From positions 96,001 to 160,000 of IMG/VR virus record IMGVR_UViG_3300042258_000071: a DNA stretch of 64,000 nt; one strand, written 5' to 3'. Shown here one piece after another: positions 1,498-58,805 of the stretch. Every line of letters starts with the position of its first letter. The first letter of the stretch is position 1. The notes beneath the pieces are model-generated. The model ran no database searches, had not been told where the DNA came from, and saw nothing but the letters and a program-made list of their open reading frames with translations. This stretch comes from a virus (taxonomy: Duplodnaviria; Caudoviricetes). The translations under genes were made by a program, and so were the position numbers.

Positions 1498-2727
1498 TTG
1501 AGAGGATTAGATATGATTGATATCAATATGGGTCAACTTAAGATGGTAATGACCCTTAAGAAATTACCAGAACCTTACAACGTCTTTGAGTCTGCAACTG
1601 TATATCTAAATACTCATCGGAAGCGAAGAGTTATTATTTTAAAAGGAAAGAATACTGCAAAAATATGGAAGGAAACAGGATTGGCATATCGAACTACTTA
1701 TGCACGTTTTCTTTATCAAATTGATTACTGGTCTAAGTATAAAAAATTAATACCCAACGGAATGGAAGTAGACCATATTGATGACAATTCTTTAAATGAT
1801 ACACTTTCCAATTATCAATTGTTAACTACTTTTGAGAATGCTCAAAAACGAGATTTCAACAATCGTAAATACACCGAAGTATCTAAAGAACTTCTCTCTA
1901 AAATTAAGCACCTTCTTGATAAGAAGATAAGTTATGTTAAGATATCACAAAAATGCGACATCTCTCCAGGTAAGTTAAAATACATTTTAAATACTCATTT
2001 TGGATATTCTTTTCCTGAGAAGTTTAAAGGTTTCGATGATGAGAAAATTAAGAAAATGCTCAAAGAAGGAAAGTCTCATAATGAGATTGGATTTGAATTA
2101 GGAATAAGTTATTCCTCGGTTCGAAGACATATCAAAGATAAACTCCCTCCAGAGTATCACGACATGGTAGGGGGTCGTAATCGTAAAGAGGTTCTAAAAG
2201 AGATTGAGTCGCTTCTTAAGTCTGGTGAAACTAGTAATTCCGTTATTGGGAAGAAAGTTGGATATACAGATAGTAATGTCTGTATTATTATTCAAAAAGA
2301 ATTCCCTGAGTATTATAAACAAATAAAAGAAAAGGAACAGGACGATCGATCTTCTATTATCACAGCTCTTAAGTCTAAATTAGATGAATATGGGATTATG
2401 GCTAACCTAACTCAAGTTAGTAAAGATTTAAATTTAACACAACAAGTTGTACATTCTTTAGTTGAGAAGTATATTCCTGAATATTCGTTTTATGAACTTC
2501 AGAAGCGTCGTATGAAATATGTTGTAGAATTGTTTCATAAAGATGCGACTCAGAGAATATCGTATTATGTTAAAAAGTCAAAATTAGGTATAGCAACATT
2601 CTTAAAAGCACTTAGTGAAGATTGTGGATATATCAATCCTACTGGAGTACGATTCATTGAAGTTAGAGATTGCTGGTTAAGATCTAAGTTTAAAGGGGCA
2701 CTATTATCTCAGAAGGTTTTAGGGTAA
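1498..2727 (+). CDS. Free-standing HNH homing endonuclease with repeated HTH-like C-terminal modules (likely start 1513)
   Basis: EVDHIDDNSLNDTLSNYQLLTTFENAQK HNH motif; repeated HTH segments (SYVKISQKCDIS, SHNEIGFELGISYSSV, SNSVIGKKVGYT, NLTQVSKDLNLT); AT-rich; bounded by terminators on both sides. Confidence 0.8.
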   Translation: MRGLDMIDINMGQLKMVMTLKKLPEPYNVFESATVYLNTHRKRRVIILKGKNTAKIWKETGLAYRTTYARFLYQIDYWSKYKKLIPNGMEVDHIDDNSLNDTLSNYQLLTTFENAQKRDFNNRKYTEVSKELLSKIKHLLDKKISYVKISQKCDISPGKLKYILNTHFGYSFPEKFKGFDDEKIKKMLKEGKSHNEIGFELGISYSSVRRHIKDKLPPEYHDMVGGRNRKEVLKEIESLLKSGETSNSVIGKKVGYTDSNVCIIIQKEFPEYYKQIKEKEQDDRSSIITALKSKLDEYGIMANLTQVSKDLNLTQQVVHSLVEKYIPEYSFYELQKRRMKYVVELFHKDATQRISYYVKKSKLGIATFLKALSEDCGYINPTGVRFIEVRDCWLRSKFKGALLSQKVLG

Positions 2728-6980: not shown

Positions 6981-8657
6981 ATGAATTTGTTAAGTTATTT
7001 ACCTCAAAATAAAGGAAAAAGGTTACCCATGACCGAGTTAGACCTTTCCTATGAAGATGGCAGTATCGCAACGCTTAAAGGTCTTGCGATCATGCGACAG
7101 TCTCCTTCTGCATATCTTCCAGATGCCGAGCATCGGGGTATCTCTCATCTTATTATTGAAGCTCTTGATAACTCTGGTGACGAAGTTCTTTTAAAAGGGG
7201 AACATGGTCAGATTGAAGTTATGTTGTGCCCTGACCCTAAACGTCAAACTGTACAAGTTATCATTGGGGATAATGGACGTGGTATCCCTCTTGGGGACAT
7301 GTGGCGTGCTCTTACACAGCCAAGTTCTTCTGGTAAATTTAACCCTAAAGGAGGCGCTTACCAGTATAGCTCTGGGCAATTCGGTGTCGGGGGTAAAGTT
7401 ACAGCAGGACTGTCCCAAGATTATCGTGCCATCAGTTATCGTGGTAAAGATGGATATGGATCTCTCCATGTTCACAAAGGGGACCATCCAGATGAGAATG
7501 TGTGGACTAAGAAGTATCTCCATCGTGACATCAAGACCGATCGAACAGGTGTTCTTACCATACTGGAGCCCGACTCCGACATTTTCACAGGGGTAGAGTC
7601 TTATTGCCCTGAAGGATGGTTTGCACTTATTGAGCGTATGAAAAAGTATGCATTCTTTCACCCTCTAACCAATATTAAATTTTATCAATCCTCAAAACCC
7701 CTCCCATCAAATGTATGGACTGTAGATCTAAGTGGTATTGATAAGATTCTAAAAGATACGATTGCAAACTCTGCGATCATTTTTGACTCTCGTACATTTG
7801 ATCGTGAGTCATGGCTGAACAATTATCTTGGGGTAAGTAAGCCCTTCGTGTGGAGCCATCATTTCATAAAACATGCCGAACCACCCAATGATAGTCTGAT
7901 GTGTGATATCCGTATACTGTATCATGATAAGGACACTGCAGCAGCTAAACTTGGGATGGTTAATTCGGTTCCTATTGACCACGGTTCTAGTAATCACATT
8001 TCAGAGCTCCTTTCCACGCTTAAAGAGAGACTTGAAACTCAGATCTCAGATAAAGCTATTCGGACGTTTTTTAAAGAGACCTACCGTCTCCCAATTTATC
8101 TTACTGTAAACGTTAAATATCAAGGTGCTAAATTTAGTGGGACAACAAAGGATGCATTCTTCTCTCAAAAATTTAGGGATGACTACAACGAGTATCTAAA
8201 CCAGTACTTCACAAAGACAGCAGAGGGTAAGGCCTCCATTGAGGAGTTGTATGCTCTTTTAGAACCTGATATTACTGAAAAATATCTTGCGTCTATAAAT
8301 GGGGCGTCTGTTGTTAAAGTTGAAAACCGTCTCTTTAAAGATCTTGCGAACCCTAATAAGTTTGCAAACTGCTTTGCTAAAGATCGTAGTGAAGCAACGC
8401 TTTTTCTTGTAGAGGGGGATTCTGCTGGTCGTGGGGTTGCTAAACTTCGTGATGGGGAGACGATGGGGATTTACTATATGAAAGGTAAATCTCTTAATGG
8501 TTTTGCCAAATGGGGTCGGGATCAAATTTCTCGTGAGATCCGTAAAAAGAAGTATGGGACGTATCACGATATCCTTAAAATTCTGAAACTCGATCCTGAT
8601 AACCCTAATCTTAATAGTCTCTATTATAACAAACTCGTAATAATGACAGACGCAGAT
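6981..8657 (+). CDS. gyrB: Type IIA topoisomerase subunit B (GyrB/ParE-like), exon 1 (likely start 7029)
   Basis: GHKL motifs EALDNSGDE, DNGRGIP, SSGKF, GQFGVGG; TOPRIM LVEGDSAG, MKGKSLN; reading frame ends mid-motif at IMTDAD. Confidence 0.92.
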
Positions 8658-9020
8658 TAAAGAATTATAGTCCACCTGATTAGAAATAATCATAGTGAAT
8701 CTTCCTTAATTGCTGGAAAGTCCTAAAGCCACATGCACTACAACGTAGTTGGAAACGACAAGCGTGATAGTTCAAAAAGCATATGGATATATGGACGATC
8801 AGCAGCGAAGCGCCTTATACATGTCGTGATGACAGCAGTGTGGTGAACGTTCAACGACTAACCGGTTGCGCGGAGTAGGGGTCAAGGGACCTCGAAATAG
8901 GAAGCATCTAAGAGTCCTTAAGGATTTAGGATGAAGATATAGTCTCGGCATATGAGGAAACCTCATAGCAGTGCTTAAGTGCACGGGTAGAGTGACAACC
9001 TAACTTTACTGAAGATATCG
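8658..9020 (+). mobile_element. Group I intron (IA2-like, no ORF), 363 nt
   Basis: P AATTGCTGGAAA (8708), Q ATCAGCAG (8798), R GTTCAACGACTAA (8849), S AAGATATAGTCT (8934); P3 CTTCC/GGAAG; P1 GAU|UA pairs with UAGUC giving a U.G at the 5' splice site; terminal G at 9020; splicing restores MTDAD|SHGKHI in frame. Confidence 0.93.
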
Positions 9021-9914
9021 TCCCATGGGAAACATATCGCCTCCATCATCACAGGTAATATGTACGCCCTCTGTCCTGAGTTTGTAGAAGCAGGGAAACT
9101 CTTTGTGGTAACACCTCCTTATTACAAAATTCAATATAAGAAAGGTGATAAGGATAAAGCTCACTACATTAAAGATTATAATGATCTTGTGTTATGGTTT
9201 TGTGATCATGTTTATCGTCCAACCTTCAATATAAAGCTTGGGCATGTTCACCCGAACCCTAAAAATTTAAATAAGCGGGTCGAAACAATTCACGACTTAA
9301 ATGATCATCCAGAGGTGTTCGATGCTTTTATGCGAAACATTCTCACCTTTGGAGAGATCCTCATAAACCTAAGCCAAGAGCTCATGATAAACGCCCTTAT
9401 TCTTGAGAAGCTTACTTATATTTCGTACTATCTTGATGTTCACACCGTAGACCCCATTGCTATTAAACACATCCTATGTGCTGATGATGTCAGATATGAC
9501 GATGTTGGACACATCATCACCTTAACTTATGGCAGAGATGATTATGTCATTCCTCTTTTTAAAGTTAAGGAACGTCTAACAGATGAGCTTCTTCCTCTTT
9601 TAAACCGTATGAGATGGAAAGATCTGAGATTATATATTACTGCTAAGCGGTATAATGGCCTTAAAGATCAAGTCATGTCTCTTGGGGAATTTTATTCCCT
9701 TCTTAAAGGATTTGAGAAAGACTTTAAGATTGAGAAGCTCAAAGGTCTTGGCACCATGGAGCCCCAAGATACATACCAGACATGTATGGACCCAAGATAC
9801 CGGACCATGTATCAGATTACCTCTGTGAAGGATGTTAATTTGATATGGGATCTTCTGGGGAAAAACAGTGATAAACGAAAGAACCTGCTCATTGACCAGA
9901 CCATTAGAATTTGA
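9021..9914 (+). CDS. gyrB: Type IIA topoisomerase subunit B, exon 2
   Basis: SHGKHIASII..., GKLFVVTPPYY, KLKGLGTM, CMDPRYR, C-terminal DKRK; spliced product ~840 aa from 7029. Confidence 0.92.
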   Translation, partial: SHGKHIASIITGNMYALCPEFVEAGKLFVVTPPYYKIQYKKGDKDKAHYIKDYNDLVLWFCDHVYRPTFNIKLGHVHPNPKNLNKRVETIHDLNDHPEVFDAFMRNILTFGEILINLSQELMINALILEKLTYISYYLDVHTVDPIAIKHILCADDVRYDDVGHIITLTYGRDDYVIPLFKVKERLTDELLPLLNRMRWKDLRLYITAKRYNGLKDQVMSLGEFYSLLKGFEKDFKIEKLKGLGTMEPQDTYQTCMDPRYRTMYQITSVKDVNLIWDLLGKNSDKRKNLLIDQTIRI

Positions 9915-10674
9915 GCACATACCTGACTTTATAGAAGAGATGGATCGATCCATCTCTTCTTTCTCACCTCTCAACAGTATGGAACATGTTTTTAAATCTA
10001 TCTGGTTAGAGCTCAGTAGTTTCTTAATGCATCCAACGCTTCTATCTGAAGAAATGTGCTATCATGATCTCAAGCATCCAGTGCAAATTCCAGGATACTC
10101 AGAGACCATAAATTACTTCTGCAAACACAATTATGGTACCACAGATCACTGTGCCACTTCTAAAAAAATAGAGGGGTTAAGACTTTACCCTACAACCCCC
10201 TCGGACATGCTTCAACATACTCTAGATTGGTTATATATCACACGTGAAATGTCTACTCTTAGATATCGACCTTCTACTTTAAATATTTTCAAATATCTTG
10301 GATACATCGCAATGCATCACAATAAGATCATGTATACACCCTTTAACCTTCCCTATTTTGAAGAAGGTAATTTTAAACGAAGTCTAAACGTACTCCCTCG
10401 TACAGCAGTTGGGTATCGTAAACGCATCATACACGTATCAACAAAATTAGAACGTGTTATCATCAACATCCCACGCCATGACGATGATGTCATAAAAACC
10501 TCGTACATATGTCTCGTCAGTGGATGGTGTTATATCTATCTGTGTTCTTTGTTAGAACGCGCTTATCGTTATGTAGGATATGTATCTGGTCCTAACAGAG
10601 TTCCGATTTCAAAATTTATCTCAACATTTGATCTCTTTACATCAACACTTGTTAAAGGGAACCACCTCCCATGA
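9868..10674 (+). CDS. Hypothetical protein (start uncertain, possibly 9940)
   Basis: Long ORF between the topoisomerase subunit genes. Confidence 0.6.
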   Translation: MINERTCSLTRPLEFEHIPDFIEEMDRSISSFSPLNSMEHVFKSIWLELSSFLMHPTLLSEEMCYHDLKHPVQIPGYSETINYFCKHNYGTTDHCATSKKIEGLRLYPTTPSDMLQHTLDWLYITREMSTLRYRPSTLNIFKYLGYIAMHHNKIMYTPFNLPYFEEGNFKRSLNVLPRTAVGYRKRIIHVSTKLERVIINIPRHDDDVIKTSYICLVSGWCYIYLCSLLERAYRYVGYVSGPNRVPISKFISTFDLFTSTLVKGNHLP

Positions 10675-11228
10675 GCACACTTCTGTTCACCAGAGAAGAT
10701 GTGAATAAATCCAGATCGAGCGAACTCATAAGACTCTTAAGAGTCATTGCGTATCGTCTGGGTATTGATAATTCAGCCTTTGCAAAACAGCATTATAACT
10801 GGTGTATGCGAGTTGGATATCAAAAATCAAAAACACAAGGCCTGTATAATAACCACCGGAGTATGGTGACATCGAATACAACGATGTCCATCAAGACCTT
10901 TTTCATATTCATTAAAGAGTGGATGAACTTCTCTATTGTTAGACTTTCAGTAACACTCCTCGATCCCGAGACTGGGAAGGAGATGGTTTTTCACAGTGAT
11001 GACATTGTCGATGATGATGATGCTGGAAGTCATAGTCCAACGAACCTTCCTGATATTGACATGGCGATTGATTTCGCAATTCGAAATGCTCCCGCATGTA
11101 AAAGTGCTGAGGAAAAGCAGTGGTTAATTGATCAGGTATTAAGATCACTCACAAAAGATACCTATAATGAGGCGATTAAACTATCTCCAGAAAAATGGGA
11201 AGTTGGAACGCCTCCTAAGGTTACATAA
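10671..11228 (+). CDS. Hypothetical protein
   Basis: ATGA overlap with the upstream ORF; AAGGG RBS. Confidence 0.7.
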   Translation: MSTLLFTREDVNKSRSSELIRLLRVIAYRLGIDNSAFAKQHYNWCMRVGYQKSKTQGLYNNHRSMVTSNTTMSIKTFFIFIKEWMNFSIVRLSVTLLDPETGKEMVFHSDDIVDDDDAGSHSPTNLPDIDMAIDFAIRNAPACKSAEEKQWLIDQVLRSLTKDTYNEAIKLSPEKWEVGTPPKVT

Positions 11229-11331
11229 GCTGCAATAACATTCAAATACGTGAGGACACTTTATAAGAGGAGTGTCCTCACCTCTTTTCATTAACACATT
11301 TTTGACCAAAATTAGACAATTGGGAAACCAC

Positions 11332-13575
11332 ATGAGTGATGTGCAGAAAACATATGAAGTTAAGAAGGCCATTGGAATCGATGCATCAGACCTCATTAGA
11401 GATCACCATATCGAATATGGAGAAGACATCTTTAAAAATCATTTCCCTCAAATAGGGGATGGTCTTAAAACTCTTTATCGAAGAATTCTTTGGGCACTTC
11501 AAGATACAGACGACTCAATTAAGGCTACTGCAGCCATTGCCTTAGTTATGAAATATCACCCTCATGGAGATACTTCTATTTATGATGGGATCGTTCGACT
11601 TGGAGCATATCTCCCTGATCCTAAAAACAAGTCGGCACCAAGAGAGGGTATCGTCTTTAATCCGCCACTTCTAAAAGCTATCGGTAATATGGCGGACCCA
11701 AATTTCTATGCAGCACCTCGATATACCAATGTTGCTATGGGGGAGTTTGGGAGAGATTTATTCTTTAAGGGGATTGAAAAGGCATCTATACCCATCACCC
11801 TTAATAGTGATGGATTTATCGAACCTCTATATCTCATCCCTGCTATACCTACAAATCTGTATTTTGGTAATACAACCGTCGGGTTCGGCCATGGATCTAA
11901 ACTTCCCCCTCGAAATTTTAATGAGGTGTGTGATCTTGCCATTGCATACTGTGATCATATTGGAAAGTTCGGGTTCGACATCCAGTACCCTTTTGAGATA
12001 GGGAAACATGCGTCCAAGCTTCTCCCAGATTTTTATATGGATAACGTCATTCTTAATGAAGACGCTCTTCTCAAAGCATATCGTCTCGGGGAATTCGATC
12101 ACGAGATCATATATACAGGATCAGTAATACTTACAAAAGATACGATTCATATTAAATCTCTCCCATATGGATCTTCAAAAAGTGCGTATGAGAAGTTGCA
12201 AGCCCTTCTCTTAGATCGAAAAATGAAGAACTCTTTTCTAGATCAAAACATCACAGATATCATGGACGAACCTGATCGGGCAACTGTGTATCTTAAGAAG
12301 AACAGTGTGTCAGTATTTGAAGTATGGCATGCTCTAAAACAACACATCGAATTTACAACAAGCTTCCATCCGAATTATAACTATTGTACTCCAAATGGTC
12401 ATCTCAATATAGATGTGGATGTTAACGTTCTTCTAGAGGTTTGGTATAAACGAAGAAGCTCTCTCATCTTAGGGACTAAAAGGAGACAACTCGAAAGACT
12501 TGCAAAAGCGATCCGTATTGTCGATGCACGATTGAACATTATCGAAAATACGGATAAAGCACTTAGGATCATTCGAAATAATGACATGGATAATGCTATT
12601 CAACTCCTTATGAAAAGTTTTAAACTATCATACTCTCAAGCAGACTACATCGTCACATCACGACTATCCATATTAACTAAGACGGGTCGTCAAGAACTCT
12701 TAGATGAACATGTTCGTCTTAAAGAGAAATTTAAAGAATTACAAGACAGTTTTCATCTCATCCCTAAAGAGATTATCTCAGATATTCTAGATCTTAAAAA
12801 GAAGTATCATCGAACGCGAATTACAAAAGTCCCTCATTATGTTGGATGTGTGAAACTAGGCTCTGGATATGCCCAAATAAGTGACTTTTCAGAGCTTGAA
12901 ACTCTTCTTTTAGACTTCCCCCGGGTACCTACCCAGGTCATCGATTATCAGCATAATAACGTCATGGTGATCGATCGAAAAGGGCGAGTCTTACAGAACC
13001 CAAAAGAGAAGTATGGTGAAGGAGATATCTATCTCACACCCCCATCTTTTCCTCATACAGTTCACCTGGCTCCAGATAAGACAGGTATGTGTGTAAAAGG
13101 TATTGTTCCTTATAGTGGGAGTGGAAAACTCTTCTATGCATCTCTTAGATCTAAAATTGTTTATAAAGATGGTTGGGTTAAATCTGAGAAAATCACGGAC
13201 GTTCTAAGTGTTCGTAAAACCATCTCTCGGGGGGCGAAGACAGATATCATTGCTGTGTATCCTAATTATCTTAAAGAACATTTTATCGTGATTGTAAGTG
13301 ATAAAGATTTAAATGTCCTAACCTTATATCGCGTTCCTGAAGGCTCTGAAGCAAAACTTGTCATGAACCAAGTTGGCATGAAGCACGTTATTGCACATGA
13401 GACCGGTAAAGACTGGTATTTAGACATCCCTGATAAGTATCTAACGCGAGGGAATGTAAGACTGTTTAACATCATTGATGCTCATGAATTACTTGGTACC
13501 AACAATCGTACCCGGATTGAAGTCACTGCTTCTAAATGGAGACGACATTCTCTTTTTAATGTCATCTCATACTAA
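11332..13575 (+). CDS. gyrA: Type IIA topoisomerase subunit A (GyrA/ParC-like)
   Basis: DGLKTLYRRIL, KYHPHGDTSIY, catalytic Tyr in AAPRYT, PPRNFNEV, QADYI; start placed at ATG 11332 (MSDVQ). Confidence 0.92.
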   Translation: MSDVQKTYEVKKAIGIDASDLIRDHHIEYGEDIFKNHFPQIGDGLKTLYRRILWALQDTDDSIKATAAIALVMKYHPHGDTSIYDGIVRLGAYLPDPKNKSAPREGIVFNPPLLKAIGNMADPNFYAAPRYTNVAMGEFGRDLFFKGIEKASIPITLNSDGFIEPLYLIPAIPTNLYFGNTTVGFGHGSKLPPRNFNEVCDLAIAYCDHIGKFGFDIQYPFEIGKHASKLLPDFYMDNVILNEDALLKAYRLGEFDHEIIYTGSVILTKDTIHIKSLPYGSSKSAYEKLQALLLDRKMKNSFLDQNITDIMDEPDRATVYLKKNSVSVFEVWHALKQHIEFTTSFHPNYNYCTPNGHLNIDVDVNVLLEVWYKRRSSLILGTKRRQLERLAKAIRIVDARLNIIENTDKALRIIRNNDMDNAIQLLMKSFKLSYSQADYIVTSRLSILTKTGRQELLDEHVRLKEKFKELQDSFHLIPKEIISDILDLKKKYHRTRITKVPHYVGCVKLGSGYAQISDFSELETLLLDFPRVPTQVIDYQHNNVMVIDRKGRVLQNPKEKYGEGDIYLTPPSFPHTVHLAPDKTGMCVKGIVPYSGSGKLFYASLRSKIVYKDGWVKSEKITDVLSVRKTISRGAKTDIIAVYPNYLKEHFIVIVSDKDLNVLTLYRVPEGSEAKLVMNQVGMKHVIAHETGKDWYLDIPDKYLTRGNVRLFNIIDAHELLGTNNRTRIEVTASKWRRHSLFNVISY

Positions 13576-51173: not shown

Positions 51174-52013
51174 TTAGATAAAGTATTTCATAAGAGCTCG
51201 TGCAGATTCTGGGTCAAAATAATGACCCTCTTTAACTTTACCCATGGCTTCAGCATACATCTGAGGGGAACCCTCTTGCTCATACCGATCGACCATGTCC
51301 CGAATACGGCCGATGTTTGCCCCTGCAAACACTTGACCGATGTCGATTTTGATAACAAGGTCTGTAAACAACATTTGTTTAGCTGCAATAACACAAAGTT
51401 CTGCAATGGGATCAACCATGCTCGCAGGGAGGTTTGTAAGGTTATCGTCATACGCAAGAACACACTCAATGACCAATTGATCAACTGTTGTCGTAGGTGT
51501 AATCTGAATAACGTTTCCATCCCAAAGTGTTGCAACAGGTGTTAAAATCGCACTACTTCGCGTATGACTCTCCGTGATAGCACCTGCCAGATTGTTCATG
51601 GTGTTACCTTGATTGGCATAGAGCATCGGTGATGCTCCATAACTCCTCGCGTAACCGATCCCAAAAGATACATTTCTAATAGCTGAAATATTACGATGGT
51701 CTCGAACATCTGGAGGTACTTGATAGAGATCCCCTTGAATGGAGGGTCCTAAATAAAACTCGCGAATATCATCCGCTCTTAATCGATACTCTTCTCTTAA
51801 TATAATAGGCTTAGGACGCCCTTGGGCAATGCTCACATCTTGAATAACACGACGCCTTACAACACGATCAAGAATCTTATCATCTAGTGTTGAACCTTCA
51901 CTCTCATTATGCTGATTAAACCCAAGGTCAAGAAGTTCTCTTGGTATAGTAGAATATATTCTTTGAAGAATGATGTCTAAGGGGTTAACACTTGATGTCA
52001 TAAATAGCCTCAT
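51174..52013 (-). CDS. Conserved phiKZ-like virion (neck/head completion-type) protein
   Basis: IPRELL, LDDKI...RV, ELCVIAAKQ...L...IDIG. Confidence 0.55.
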   Translation of the reverse strand: MRLFMTSSVNPLDIILQRIYSTIPRELLDLGFNQHNESEGSTLDDKILDRVVRRRVIQDVSIAQGRPKPIILREEYRLRADDIREFYLGPSIQGDLYQVPPDVRDHRNISAIRNVSFGIGYARSYGASPMLYANQGNTMNNLAGAITESHTRSSAILTPVATLWDGNVIQITPTTTVDQLVIECVLAYDDNLTNLPASMVDPIAELCVIAAKQMLFTDLVIKIDIGQVFAGANIGRIRDMVDRYEQEGSPQMYAEAMGKVKEGHYFDPESARALMKYFI

Positions 52014-52155
52014 ATTTAAGGGTGACGGTATGTCCTCTTACTCTCTTAAATATGAGAGTATTTTTCCATAAAATGACCACGATACTTCGAGATTTTAAGT
52101 TAATAAATGAGCTTAACGAAACATGGCATGATATACATCCATAGGGAGATCGAAG

Positions 52156-57271: not shown

Positions 57272-57922
57272 ATGGGTAAAATTGCATTTAAAAAAGAATT
57301 CACACTTGCCATGATCAAATCACATGTGGCGATATCACGTGAAACTTGTGACACTATATGGACATATGGTACGTATGAAATGTCACACGCCTTTCCCCCA
57401 TCCCATTGTCCTACTGTAATGGCACGTCTTCGGTGTGTCATGCCAGTTCCTTTTGCAAAACTGTTTTATGCGGAACATAAGTATAAGCCTTATTTTGAAG
57501 GACTCATTCGCTCAGTAACACATGGTCCGGTTGAATTTGCTCTCCTGGTCACCAAATCTGAACCCGAATGTGACACAAGCATTGTGGACGTGTGGCGATC
57601 TGTCATCGGAACGACAGACCCTCTCACTGCGGAACCTGGAACCATTCGGGCCATGTATGGTATCCAACTTCCTTTCAATGCCGTACATGGCTCTGATTCA
57701 GAAGAGGCGGCATTTCATGAGGCAAGACTCATCTATGGATCCGATTTCCTGTATTCCGTTCTTGAGTTCAAATGTTCATCAAACATGGCATCTACGGGTG
57801 GTGGAACGGATAACAATACTAAAGTTGAAAATGCTAAGGTAAAGAGTCCTACCTCCCAGTATGGGAAACCTCCGACCCTTCCGATTGAACCCAAGGATCG
57901 AATCTCCCGGGAAGGAATTTAA
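57272..57922 (+). CDS. ndk: Nucleoside diphosphate kinase
   Basis: TLAMIK, FYAEH..KPYF, IGTTDP..AEPGTIRA, catalytic NAVHGSDS; AGGAGG RBS. Confidence 0.92.
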   Translation: MGKIAFKKEFTLAMIKSHVAISRETCDTIWTYGTYEMSHAFPPSHCPTVMARLRCVMPVPFAKLFYAEHKYKPYFEGLIRSVTHGPVEFALLVTKSEPECDTSIVDVWRSVIGTTDPLTAEPGTIRAMYGIQLPFNAVHGSDSEEAAFHEARLIYGSDFLYSVLEFKCSSNMASTGGGTDNNTKVENAKVKSPTSQYGKPPTLPIEPKDRISREGI

Positions 57923-58042
57923 GATCAGCAGTACTGAGTTGACTGATCATGGGTGAGAGAATCTCTCACCCATATGCTGTGGTTTATTTACATTCACACA
58001 TGGTCATTCACTTAAAAGTTGTCACTCATGCACACTCAGATA

Positions 58043-58057
58043 TATATTACTAGCATG
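58043..58057 (+). promoter_or_regulatory. Early promoter
   Basis: TATATTAC-tagca-TG. Confidence 0.7.
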
Positions 58058-58118
58058 AGTATAACACAGTGCCTTCATCAGGTAGTGTGTTAAATGTGAG
58101 AAATTAAAGGAGACTAAA

Positions 58119-58805
58119 ATGCAGCTCGAATTCACTCTTGCAGACATCAGCGGGAAGAAACTCTCTGAGCGGTTTAAAACCGCAATAACTGAGGAAGACG
58201 TTGGATGGGAAAAACTTAACAAGGGGACTCTCCAGGCCGAACTTACGGTCGATGACGATGACGAGTCTCGACCAGTCTGGAAGACTGTGACGTCAGGATT
58301 CTCTTATACGATCATGAATCCTGATGATACGCAGCCCGCTAAAGTGCTATACCAAGGTGCAGTTAGGGGATTCCTAATGCAGTCGTTAATCCCTGAAGAA
58401 TTGAAGGGGAGAACTGCGTTTGCCAAAATCACCGAGGGTTCGGTGTTCAACCACGAAAAATTTGAATTAGTGAACACCGACGCGGAGGTCCTATCGGGCA
58501 TCTATGCTATTATTCAAAAGACCCAAAGGCCGATTGCGCATGTCGTGGCAGCATCTTCTATAGTGAAATCACTTAAGGTGATGCACCTGATCACGAAACT
58601 GCCTTCTCGGGCAGGACTTAATCGTTTCGGGGATCCGGCACTAATCCTAATACTGGCAACGCCAGACGATGTTGAAATTGTAATTTCACCCCGAATTGGG
58701 TACGGGGACCCGGACGCCACCGATGAAGAGTTAACAGGCGCGGCAACTGCCGACTTGCTGCATCGGACGGCAAAAGTCGTCAACATGCTCGCCCCACGTG
58801 AATAG
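58119..58805 (+). CDS. Hypothetical early protein
   Basis: AAGGAG RBS; more GC-rich codons. Confidence 0.75.
   Translation: MQLEFTLADISGKKLSERFKTAITEEDVGWEKLNKGTLQAELTVDDDDESRPVWKTVTSGFSYTIMNPDDTQPAKVLYQGAVRGFLMQSLIPEELKGRTAFAKITEGSVFNHEKFELVNTDAEVLSGIYAIIQKTQRPIAHVVAASSIVKSLKVMHLITKLPSRAGLNRFGDPALILILATPDDVEIVISPRIGYGDPDATDEELTGAATADLLHRTAKVVNMLAPRE

What the first reader, a model, noticed from the sequence alone, without database searches (positions are those of the whole stretch)
8643..9059. ORF-less group I intron in the TOPRIM metal-binding motif of the topoisomerase B gene, beside the T4 gene 60 bypass position
Seen: the frame stops at IMTDAD-TAA; the next 363 nt carry P, Q, R and S elements, P3, P7 with P7.1/P7.2-like hairpins, a P1 U.G splice site and a terminal G. 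Removing 8658-9020 gives MTDAD|SHGKHIASII in frame. Known: phage group I introns are mostly reported in td, nrd, DNA polymerase, terminase, lysin and (in phiKZ-like phages) RNAP genes. In T4 gene 60 the 50-nt ribosomal bypass starts at the Gly of MTDADHDG, three codons from this site. Inference: this motif is a recurrent homing-endonuclease target that has been interrupted independently by two different RNA-level repair devices.
Basis: partly seen in the sequence, partly recalled or inferred. Interest (0 to 1): 0.78.

Follow-up and report, generated by a model that had tools for sequence, protein, structure and literature searches.

The report
Self-splicing intron in phage topoisomerase
A giant bacterial virus has a 363-base self-splicing RNA intron, without a homing-enzyme gene, inside the metal-binding motif of its DNA topoisomerase gene; related viruses carry the same intron with a DNA-cutting enzyme at the same spot, nine bases from where phage T4's topoisomerase gene carries its 50-base translational bypass gap.

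Summary
Window 8658-9020 (363 nt) is a complete group I intron: Rfam RF00028 scores 74.5 bits against a cut-off of 50. It interrupts a GyrB/ParE-like type II topoisomerase gene directly after the codons for IMTDAD.

An uninterrupted homolog (68% identical, 843 aa) reads ...IMTDAD-SHGKHIASIITGNMYALCP..., and its DNA reads GAT|TCC. That is exactly the predicted exon junction.

The intron has no ORF. It is one of five paralogous ORF-less introns in this 236-kb phiKZ-like phage. Their shared fold is supported by covariation: 47 of 95 pairs show compensatory changes, including pairs in the P7 pseudoknot.

Three more distant homologs (33-46% identity) also end at TDAD. Each is followed at once by an orthologous NUMOD4/HNH_3 endonuclease ORF. 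In two of them the same intron family's core follows, with the ORF folded out in the P1 loop.

The intron cores resemble the phiKZ gp179 and PhiPA3 gp210 RNA polymerase introns. The HNHs show no pairwise similarity to T4-type MobA. The T4 bypass gap lies three codons downstream of the homologous site.

Verdict: a real, probably functional intron of a known family in a host gene for which I found no earlier report. The 'recurrent homing target' idea is supported by sequence but not by enzyme assays. No RNA evidence for splicing could be obtained.

The scan had already noted this same stretch from another window, and the RNA polymerase introns of this genome.

The parts
7029..8657 (+). Exon 1 of the GyrB/ParE-like topoisomerase II large subunit (543 codons, ending ...IMTDAD). 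The start is taken as ATG 7029, by comparison with homolog P0002.
   Evidence: The ORF 6981-8660 is. Pfam gives HATPase_c, and Toprim truncated at profile position 66 of 96. Exon 1 is 68% identical to P0002.
8658..9020 (+). Group I intron of 363 nt with no ORF. Its first triplet, UAA, is an in-frame stop.
   Evidence: RF00028 scores 74.5 bits. The junction is confirmed by the intron-less L006. No + strand ORF of 40 aa or more lies inside it.
8655..8672 (+). P1 hairpin. Exon GAU plus intron UA(A) pairs with the guide sequence UAGUC (8668-8672). U8657.G8670 is the wobble pair at the 5' splice site.
   Evidence: The cmscan alignment is and the sequence. Four paralogs have exon GAU with guide GUC, and the fifth has exon ACU with guide GGU.
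8677..8692 (+). P2 hairpin, UGAUUA-GAAA-UAAUCA.
   Evidence: All five counted pairs (8678-8682 with 8687-8691) show compensatory changes among the paralogs.
8701..8706 (+). P3, 5' strand (CUUCCU). It pairs with 8899-8904.
   Evidence: 100% paired, and 3 of 6 pairs are compensatory.
8711..8804 (+). P4-P5 domain with the P5a-c extension. P4 is 8711-8716 paired with 8799-8804, which are the P and Q elements.
8805..8850 (+). P6 and P6a.
   Evidence: This segment is 93% identical to the virion-RNAP beta' intron.
8847..8860 (+). R element and the 5' strand of P7 (GACUA, 8856-8860). It pairs with 8940-8944.
   Evidence: The P7 pseudoknot is 100% paired, and 2 of 5 pairs covary (CU/AG to UC/GA).
8862..8892 (+). 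P7.1 (8862-8873) and P7.2 (8879-8892). These are the subgroup-IA peripheral hairpins between P7 and the 3' strand of P3.
   Evidence: Both show compensatory changes.
8899..8904 (+). P3, 3' strand (AGGAAG).
8905..8933 (+). P8 hairpin.
   Evidence: The stretch 8891-8940 is 100% identical to the intron at genome 231171-231553.
8934..8944 (+). S element and the 3' strand of P7 (UAGUC, 8940-8944).
8950..9007 (+). P9 (8950-8968), P9.1 (8971-8984) and P9.2 (8989-9007).
9020..9020 (+). Terminal G (omega-G) at the 3' splice site.
   Evidence: The shared ending CTGAAGAYAYCG| is also seen in the non-virion-RNAP beta intron.
9021..9914 (+). Exon 2 (297 codons plus stop): SHGKHIASIITGN..., the rest of TOPRIM and the GyrB C-terminal domain. 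Its first 13 codons have no start codon of their own.
   Evidence: Pfam gives DNA_gyraseB_C. The first 13 residues are 13/13 identical to P0002, with 6 synonymous and 0 non-synonymous differences.
11272..13575 (+). Partner subunit, GyrA/ParC/gp52-like.
   Evidence: Pfam DNA_topoisoIV, E 1.2e-51.

Best explanation
Window 8658-9020 is a subgroup-IA-type group I ribozyme. It removes itself from the topoisomerase pre-mRNA by the standard two-step, guanosine-initiated transesterification.

**Inferred mechanism.**
- The guide sequence UAGUC (8668-8672) pairs with exon GAU and the first intron bases to form P1.
- U8657.G8670 marks the 5' splice site and G9020 marks the 3' splice site.
- Ligation joins GAU|UCC. 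This yields one 840-residue GyrB/ParE-like subunit with an intact TOPRIM motif, IMTDAD-SHGKHI.
- The in-frame UAA that opens the intron stops ribosomes on unspliced RNA.

**Likely origin.** The element belongs to the intron family of phiKZ-like jumbo phages (phiKZ gp179, PhiPA3 gp210). Relatives carry it at this exact site with an HNH homing endonuclease ORF looped out of P1. The copy here has most likely lost that ORF, so it is no longer mobile by itself. It persists because imprecise loss would destroy an essential active-site motif. It may also persist because it splits the DNA target of the HNH carried by related co-infecting phages.

**Shown:** ribozyme homology, fold covariation, the exact junction, and HNH-bearing relatives at the same site.
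**Inferred:** splicing itself, ORF loss rather than ORF gain, and any protective role.
For: **Ribozyme**
- RF00028 scores 74.5 bits, E 4.5e-17, over the full-length model.
- The genome holds five paralogous introns.
- Their common structure is 92.8% paired, against 35-41% when partners are slid. Of 95 pairs, 47 carry compensatory changes, including in the P7 pseudoknot. None of 500 shuffles reached the observed covariation score.

**Junction**
- The intron-less homolog P0002/L006 (843 aa, 68% identical) reads ...VIMTDADSHGKHIASIITGNMYALCP, and its DNA reads GAT|TCCCATGGGAAA.
- The 13 ATG-less codons that open exon 2 differ from L006 by 6 synonymous and 0 non-synonymous changes. They are therefore translated, which requires splicing.
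- The junction is colinear and gap-free with solved ParE, ILADADSDGLHIATLL.

**Relatives**
- P0003, P0015 and P0016 end at TDAD, followed by orthologous NUMOD4/HNH_3 ORFs that are 43-53% identical to each other.
- The same intron family's core follows the ORF in L007 and L009.
- Cofolding pairs the 5' splice site GAUU with AGUC next to P2, and a long helix closes off the ORF loop.

**Family**
- The core is 66-72% identical to the introns next to phiKZ gp179, PhiPA3 gp210 and the Serratia phage 2050HW endonuclease. All three sit in RNA polymerase genes.
Against: - There is no RNA evidence.
- P1 is short, about 5 base pairs. P10 with the 3' exon is essentially absent, with one U-A pair (sequence).
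- A weak AGG lies 5 nt upstream of ATG 9060. A separate 284-aa exon-2 product, as with T4 gp39/gp60, therefore cannot be excluded as a side product.
- The 3' halves and second exons of the HNH-bearing introns are missing, because every contig ends inside the intron core. For those relatives, 'same site' rests on the 5' junction only.
- The direction of change, ORF loss versus ORF gain, is not resolved.
Confidence: 0.9

Rival explanations
1. The gene is truly split. The ribozyme is dead or irrelevant, and the phage makes two polypeptides (exon 1 ending at TDAD, and exon 2 starting at M9060) that assemble non-covalently, as T4 gp39 and gp60 do.
For: - T4-type phages tolerate a split in this same domain.
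- ATG 9060 has a weak AGG 5 nt upstream.
- Gene callers report two proteins, P0001 and P0123.
Against: - The intron keeps every core helix, with covariation across five paralogs.
- The 13 codons upstream of ATG 9060 encode residues that are invariant in the clade (G, H, I). They show only synonymous differences from the intron-less homolog, so they must be translated.
- There are no C- or N-terminal extension tails of the kind the MobA-split proteins carry.
Confidence: 0.05
2. The intron splices, but it is a recent intragenomic copy. It transposed or was converted from one of the RNA polymerase introns of the same genome into the topoisomerase gene, for example by reverse splicing at a GAU site. 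On this view it does not descend from an HNH-driven homing event at this site.
For: - Four of the five introns follow GAU and share the guide sequence GUC.
- The topoisomerase intron is a mosaic. Fifty bases are identical to the intron at 231171-231553, P6 is 93% identical to the virion-RNAP beta' intron, and the 3' end is most like the non-virion-RNAP beta intron.
- The topoisomerase introns of L007 and L009 are no closer to the window's topoisomerase intron than to its RNA polymerase introns.
Against: - Three relatives with 33-46% identical host proteins are interrupted at the identical codon boundary. Their HNH ORFs are orthologous. This is more simply explained by homing or descent at this site.
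- The mosaic pattern can arise afterwards, by gene conversion among paralogs.
Confidence: 0.25
3. The interruption is handled at the protein or translation level, by an intein or by a T4-like ribosomal bypass, rather than by RNA splicing.
For: Both devices are known in topoisomerase II large-subunit genes of T4-related phages.
Against: - The insert opens with a stop codon and has no long ORF on the + strand, so it is not an intein.
- It is 363 nt of highly structured RNA that matches a ribozyme model, not a 50-nt gap with matched take-off and landing codons.
Confidence: 0.01

Closest known systems
Group I introns of phiKZ-like jumbo phages: phiKZ gp179 intron, PhiPA3 gp210 intron (Birkholz et al. 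2024, PMC11620839) and the Serratia phage 2050HW intron
   Same: - The ribozyme family is the same: the core is 66-72% identical over 160-260 nt.
- The relatives L007 and L009 share the architecture exon 1, HNH ORF, ribozyme core, exon 2.
- The HNHs of the relatives are most similar to those phages' endonucleases.
- Insertion is in an active-site motif of an essential enzyme.
   Different: - The host gene is a type II topoisomerase, not an RNA polymerase subunit.
- The window's copy has no endonuclease ORF.
- I found no report of an intron in a phage topoisomerase gene in the searched literature.
T4 gene 39/60 MobA cassette with the 50-nt translational bypass (Bonocora et al. 2011, as described in bioRxiv 10.1101/2022.08.31.505936)
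   Same: - It is in the homologous gene and interrupts the same TOPRIM IMTDAD(x)(D/H)G stretch.
- The bypass gap lies 9 nt downstream of the homologous position. The reported MobA nick lies about 11 nt upstream of it.
- An HNH-superfamily endonuclease is associated, and the insertion breaks up that enzyme's target.
   Different: - Repair there is by ribosome hopping plus a physical split of the protein, not by RNA splicing.
- MobA (HY01, 272 aa) shows no pairwise similarity to the intron HNHs (E 0.58).
- MobA gives only a weak match to Pfam HNH (PF01844, below its cut-off), not to the HNH_3 and NUMOD4 families found in the intron HNHs.
- The phage lineage is different (Straboviridae).
T4 td, nrdB and nrdD introns and the SPO1/Twort introns (subgroup IA phage introns; I-HmuI-type nicking HNH enzymes)
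   Same: - The order of helices is P7, P7.1, P7.2, P3', P8, P7'. There are P9.1 and P9.2 extensions and an in-frame stop near the 5' splice site.
- ORF-less derivatives of mobile introns are known; the reference list of PMC4177764 cites the nrdB intron deletion mutant and the S. thermophilus phage lysin-intron deletion derivatives.
   Different: - The host gene and the sequence family differ.
- In the relatives the ORF sits in the P1 loop. From memory, in the T4 introns it sits in P6a or P9.1; I did not check this here.

Membership tests
Group I catalytic intron (Rfam RF00028) | Covariance-model score above the curated gathering threshold over the full model | tested here: met
   74.5 bits against 50, covering model positions 1-253 of 253, E 4.5e-17.
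Group I catalytic intron (Rfam RF00028) | Conserved core helices P3-P9, including the P3/P7 pseudoknot, maintained by compensatory changes | tested here: met
   Five paralogs give 95 pairs, 92.8% paired, with 47 pairs compensatory. Two of the five P7 pairs covary. Slid controls are 35-41% paired.
Group I catalytic intron (Rfam RF00028) | P1 with a U.G wobble at the 5' splice site, and a terminal G at the 3' splice site | tested here: met
   U8657.G8670 and G9020. The guide sequence covaries with the exon in the fifth paralog, ACU with GGU.
Group I catalytic intron (Rfam RF00028) | Removal restores a colinear host reading frame | tested here: met
   The intron-less homolog L006 has an identical protein and DNA junction. 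The region is colinear with solved ParE.
Group I catalytic intron (Rfam RF00028) | Guanosine-dependent self-splicing | not testable with these tools
This needs RT-PCR or an in vitro assay.
Subgroup IA phage-type intron | P7.1 and P7.2 hairpins between the 5' strand of P7 and the 3' strand of P3 | tested here: met
   8862-8873 and 8879-8892, both covarying. No subgroup-specific covariance model was available, so the finer call (IA2) was not tested.
Mobile intron with a homing endonuclease gene | An endonuclease ORF inside the intron | tested here: not met
   - No + strand ORF of 40 aa or more lies in 8658-9020.
- tblastn found no homolog of the relatives' intron HNHs in the genome.
- The only HNH_3 gene is a free-standing 409-aa gene at 1498-2727, which is syntenic in a relative.
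- The feature is met in the relatives L007, L009 and L011.
T4 gene 60-type bypass / MobA cassette | A 50-nt untranslated gap with take-off and landing codons, a MobA-family endonuclease, and C- and N-terminal extension tails | tested here: not met
   The insert is a 363-nt ribozyme. There is no MobA similarity and there are no extension tails; exon 1 stops immediately after TDAD.
Intein | An in-frame Hint-domain ORF continuous with both exteins | tested here: not met
   The first triplet of the insert is TAA, and no long ORF follows.
Type IIA topoisomerase B subunit (GyrB/ParE/gp39+60) | GHKL ATPase, TOPRIM and GyrB C-terminal domains, with a partner A subunit | tested here: met
   - Pfam gives HATPase_c (26.3 bits against a cut-off of 26.4) and Toprim (21.7 against 23.1) in exon 1. 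Both fall just below their curated cut-offs, and the Toprim match is truncated by the intron.
- Pfam gives DNA_gyraseB_C in exon 2 and DNA_topoisoIV in the ORF 11272-13575.
- The junction region matches solved ParE and GyrB structures.

The most novel reading that the evidence does not exclude
The roughly 20 bp of DNA encoding the TOPRIM IMTDAD(x)(D/H)G motif may be a convergent hotspot. Two HNH endonuclease lineages with no detectable pairwise similarity target it: MobA in T4-like phages, and gp179/gp210-like enzymes in phiKZ-like jumbo phages.

On this reading the ORF-less intron here is more than a fossil. It would be kept as an immunity device that splits the target site, protecting the topoisomerase gene from the HNH of co-infecting relatives. 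That is the role reported for the T4 bypass gap against MobA.
Probability: 0.35. Interest if true: 0.65.

Novelty: new member of a known kind. Interest (0 to 1): 0.45.

Why it matters
- **Annotation.** Standard gene calling reports this essential topoisomerase as two truncated proteins (559 and 284 aa), with the metal-binding motif cut in half. Recognising the intron restores one 840-residue enzyme.
- **Host range of the intron family.** The phiKZ/PhiPA3 intron family has so far been discussed for RNA polymerase genes. This case extends it to a DNA topoisomerase.
- **A natural comparison.** The same conserved DNA stretch is invaded in two phage lineages by different endonucleases. One lineage repairs the damage by RNA splicing and the other by ribosomal bypass. 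Because PhiPA3's intron endonuclease was shown to act as a weapon between co-infecting phages, a genome with five endonuclease-free introns in active-site motifs is a good system to ask whether 'empty' introns serve as shields.

Tried and rejected
- **Close DNA relatives in GenBank phages.** None were found by megablast. The nearest isolates' topoisomerases are only 22-42% identical.
- **Exon-2-only ORFs from other split homologs.** Only the window's own protein was found. The 3' splice sites of the HNH-bearing introns could therefore not be seen.
- **Longer contig for P0003.** The 66,954-bp contig was fetched, but it ends at the same base inside the intron core as the two shorter ones.
- **IMG/VR, close relatives of exon 2.** None were found.
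- **IMG/VR, profile search.** The search returned 80 topoisomerase loci. None is interrupted at this site and none matches the intron HMM. One of the two search patterns spans the junction, so this scan is biased against interrupted genes.
- **Pattern ATGACNGAYGCNGAYTAA.** It gave 12 hits in viral contigs, and the first 120 hits in metagenome contigs (scan truncated). None is a topoisomerase with an intron.
- **Earlier reports.** Literature searches for an intron in a phage topoisomerase or gyrase gene found nothing. The library lacks most subscription journals, so absence is not proof.
- **Alternative splice junctions that would restore the third Asp of DxDxD.** Rejected. The in-frame stretch upstream of 9021 has no Asp codon, and DADSHG is native to the clade.
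- **MobA homology of the intron HNHs.** Rejected.
Full report
**1. What is there**

The window is bases 96001-160000 of a 236,443-bp virus record with direct terminal repeats. An ORF on the + strand (6981-8660) encodes the N-terminal 543-559 residues of a GyrB/ParE-like protein. Its likely true start is ATG 7029. Pfam gives HATPase_c and a Toprim match that breaks off at profile position 66 of 96, both scoring just under their curated cut-offs. The ORF ends ...NKLVIMTDAD, followed by TAA at 8658-8660.

From 9021 the same strand encodes SHGKHIASIITGNMYALCPEF... through a DNA_gyraseB_C domain to a stop at 9912-9914. A GyrA/ParC-like gene follows at 11272-13575.

**2. The insert is a group I intron**

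cmscan against Rfam gives a single hit in the 64-kb window. It is RF00028 at 8648-8968 on the + strand, with 74.5 bits against a gathering score of 50, E 4.5e-17, covering the full model. In that alignment the splice-site U is U8657, its wobble partner is G8670, and the R and S elements match the consensus.

The genome holds five such introns. By sequence they are paralogs. I placed their boundaries by exon frame and guide-sequence pairing; for three of the four RNA polymerase introns I used the exon junctions from earlier scan notes as leads:

| Intron | Length |
|---|---|
| Topoisomerase, 104658-105020 (window 8658-9020) | 363 nt |
| RNAP beta'-like gene (virion RNAP per the earlier notes), 57899-58261 (- strand) | 363 nt |
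| RNAP beta-like gene (virion RNAP per the earlier notes), 51741-52095 (- strand) | 355 nt |
| RNAP beta-like gene (non-virion RNAP per the earlier notes), 10922-11364 | 443 nt |
| Second RNAP beta'-like gene, 231171-231553 | 383 nt |

RNAalifold on the five sequences recovers P2, P3, P4, P5 with its extensions, P6/P6a, P7.1, P7.2, P8, P9, P9.1 and P9.2. I added the P7 pseudoknot by hand and counted pairs. Of the cells, 92.8% form standard pairs, against 35-41% when partners are slid by 1-3 columns. Of 95 pairs, 47 carry a compensatory change. P7 itself switches from GACUA/UAGUC to GAUCA/UGAUC in two paralogs. None of 500 shuffles reached the observed covariation score. The ribozyme fold is therefore under selection in all five copies.

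The helix order is P7, P7.1, P7.2, P3', P8, P7'. From general knowledge, this is the subgroup IA layout typical of phage introns.

**3. The boundaries are exact**

- The protein search found an uninterrupted homolog, P0002 (843 aa, 68% identical to exon 1). It reads ...LVIMTDADSHGKHIASIITGNMYALCPQF....
- Its DNA (L006) reads ...ATGACTGACGCCGAT|TCCCATGGGAAACAC.... The window reads ...ATGACAGACGCAGAT[363 nt]TCCCATGGGAAACAT....
- The 13 codons between 9021 and the first ATG (9060) are 13/13 identical in protein to P0002. They differ at six synonymous positions and at no non-synonymous position. A stretch with no start codon of its own is thus under purifying selection as coding sequence, which only exon ligation explains.
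- The joined sequence aligns without gaps to solved ParE (ILADADSDGLHIATLL) across the junction.
- The unusual DADSHG, with His where the classical DxDxD has its third Asp, is not a splicing artefact. Thirteen of 19 uninterrupted clade members have DADxHG and six have DADxDG.

**4. The intron is ORF-less, but relatives at the same site are not**

No + strand ORF of 40 aa or more lies in 8658-9020.

Among the 23 clade members in the 5.8-billion-protein collection (E below 1e-50), four are split, counting the window, and all split after TDAD: P0001 (the window), P0003 (46% identity), P0015 (35%) and P0016 (33%; it reads two more codons, NE, before its stop).

In each of the three relatives an ORF follows within about 80 nt. 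These ORFs carry NUMOD4 and/or HNH_3 and match phrog_59, 'HNH endonuclease'. They are 43-53% identical to one another, so they are orthologs.

In L007 the ORF is followed by P2 to P8 of the same intron family. RF00028 scores 45.8 bits there, cut off by the contig end, and nhmmer with the five-intron profile gives E 6e-36. In L009 the family's IGS-P2-P3-P4 segment follows the ORF (E 7e-10).

Cofolding the leader and the post-ORF segment pairs the 5' splice site GAUU with an AGUC directly upstream of P2, just as in the window. A long extension helix closes the loop: GAGAAACCAC with GUGGUUUACUC in L007, and CUGUGGUAAGGA with UCCUUACCACA in L009. The sequences differ but the pairing is kept. The endonuclease gene therefore sits in the P1 loop, and in the window that loop is only a few bases long.

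All three assemblies of the P0003 phage stop at the same base inside the intron core. This is what a multi-copy repeat would cause, and it means the 3' splice sites of the HNH-bearing versions were not seen.

The window's genome has no homolog of these intron HNHs. Its only HNH_3 gene (1498-2727, 409 aa) is a free-standing gene with several HTH-like regions. It has a syntenic ortholog in the P0003 phage, and it shares only the HNH motif with the intron enzymes.

**5. Family relations**

- The intron core is 66-72% identical over 160-260 nt to non-coding stretches next to phiKZ gp179, PhiPA3 gp210 and an endonuclease of Serratia phage 2050HW.
- Annotation retrieved for PhiPA3 and 2050HW shows each stretch lying between two halves of an RNA polymerase beta-like gene, in the order exon 1, HNH ORF, core, exon 2.
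- The L009 HNH is most similar to those phages' endonucleases.
- The PhiPA3 gp210 intron endonuclease is the one shown to mediate interference between co-infecting phages (PMC11620839; review PMC12908238).

This is therefore a known intron family in a host gene for which I found no earlier report. The library is incomplete, so an earlier report cannot be ruled out.

**6. The T4 comparison**

In NC_000866 the first segment of gene 60 translates to ...NYANVAIMTDADHDG, followed by the annotated 50-nt bypass and then LGSIYPSLLGFF.

According to bioRxiv 10.1101/2022.08.31.505936, which summarises Bonocora et al. 2011:
- MobA always inserts in the Toprim domain.
- MobA nicks about 20 nt upstream of the bypass insert.
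- The bypass insert is what protects the DNA from further MobA nicking.

The MobA nick, this intron site and the T4 gap therefore fall within about 20 bp of homologous coding sequence.

Full-length MobA of phage HY01 shows no pairwise similarity to the intron HNH (E 0.58). It gives only a weak, sub-threshold match to Pfam HNH (PF01844), not to HNH_3 or NUMOD4. The two interruptions are therefore independent events involving different endonuclease lineages. Target cleavage by the jumbo-phage HNHs at this motif remains an inference.

**7. Mechanism and standing**

- **Most likely (0.9):** a functional self-splicing intron that restores one topoisomerase subunit. It descends from an HNH-bearing mobile intron at this site and has lost the ORF.
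- **Origin rival (0.25 as an account of origin only):** the copy spread or was homogenised within the genome. Evidence for this is that the topoisomerase intron is a mosaic. Bases 8891-8940 are 100% identical to the 231171-231553 intron, P6 is 93% identical to the RNAP beta' intron at 57899-58261, and the 3' end is 73% identical to the RNAP beta intron at 10922-11364, against 43-46% to the others. In addition, four of the five introns follow GAU and share the guide sequence GUC.
- **Split-protein reading, as in T4 (about 0.05):** the synonymous-only substitutions in the ATG-less start of exon 2 argue against it.

**8. Verdict**

In kind this is ordinary: a group I intron in an active-site motif of an essential phage gene. 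The notable points are the new host gene, the exact overlap with the T4 MobA/bypass target region, and the genome-wide set of endonuclease-free introns. Splicing itself remains to be shown.

Noticed in passing
Genome G000:C1 10922-11364 (+), 51741-52095 (-), 57899-58261 (-), 231171-231553 (+); window 8658-9020: The genome holds five paralogous ORF-less group I introns. All sit in catalytic-core motifs of essential genes: two beta-like and two beta'-like RNA polymerase genes, plus the topoisomerase gene. The copy at 231171-231553 lies about 35 codons upstream of NGDYDGDE and was not among the earlier notes shown to me. Its boundaries (TCGAT|...TTACG|T) are inferred from the guide-sequence pairing and the reading frame only.
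   Followed up: partly
Window 8891-8940, and the other segments of the intron: The intron similarity is mosaic. Fifty bases spanning the 3' strand of P3 and P8 are identical to the intron at 231171-231553. P6 is 93% identical to the beta' intron at 57899-58261. The P9.1-to-end segment is 73% identical to the beta intron at 10922-11364, against 43-46% to the others. This suggests gene conversion or domain shuffling among intron copies within one phage genome.
   Followed up: partly
Window 8649-8657 and 9021-9029; alignment A2: In the window, and in 13 of 19 uninterrupted clade homologs, the third acidic residue of the classical TOPRIM DxDxD triad is His (DADxHG). Six homologs keep Asp. What this means for metal binding was not examined.
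   Followed up: no
Window 1498-2727 (+): A free-standing 409-aa protein carries an HNH_3 motif and HTH-like regions. It has a syntenic ortholog, 34% identical, upstream of the topoisomerase gene in the P0003 phage (L229 6093-7325). It is the only HNH_3 gene in the genome and is not the intron type. Its function is unknown.
   Followed up: partly
L007, L008 and L229 (contig ends); L009, L010, L011 and L012: Independent assemblies of the relatives all end inside or just before the intron core. This is consistent with multi-copy introns breaking short-read assemblies. It also means that intron-bearing alleles are systematically truncated in public contigs and under-counted in surveys.
   Followed up: partly
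Genome G000:C1 10922-11010 (L004 1471-1560): The RNA polymerase beta intron at 10922-11364 has about 80 nt between its 5' splice site and its guide sequence. This is the same place where relatives of the topoisomerase intron carry the HNH ORF. It may be a scar of ORF deletion.
   Followed up: no
Window 9868-10674 and 10671-11228 (+): Two ORFs of unknown function (268 and 185 aa) lie between the two topoisomerase subunit genes. I did not examine them.
   Followed up: no
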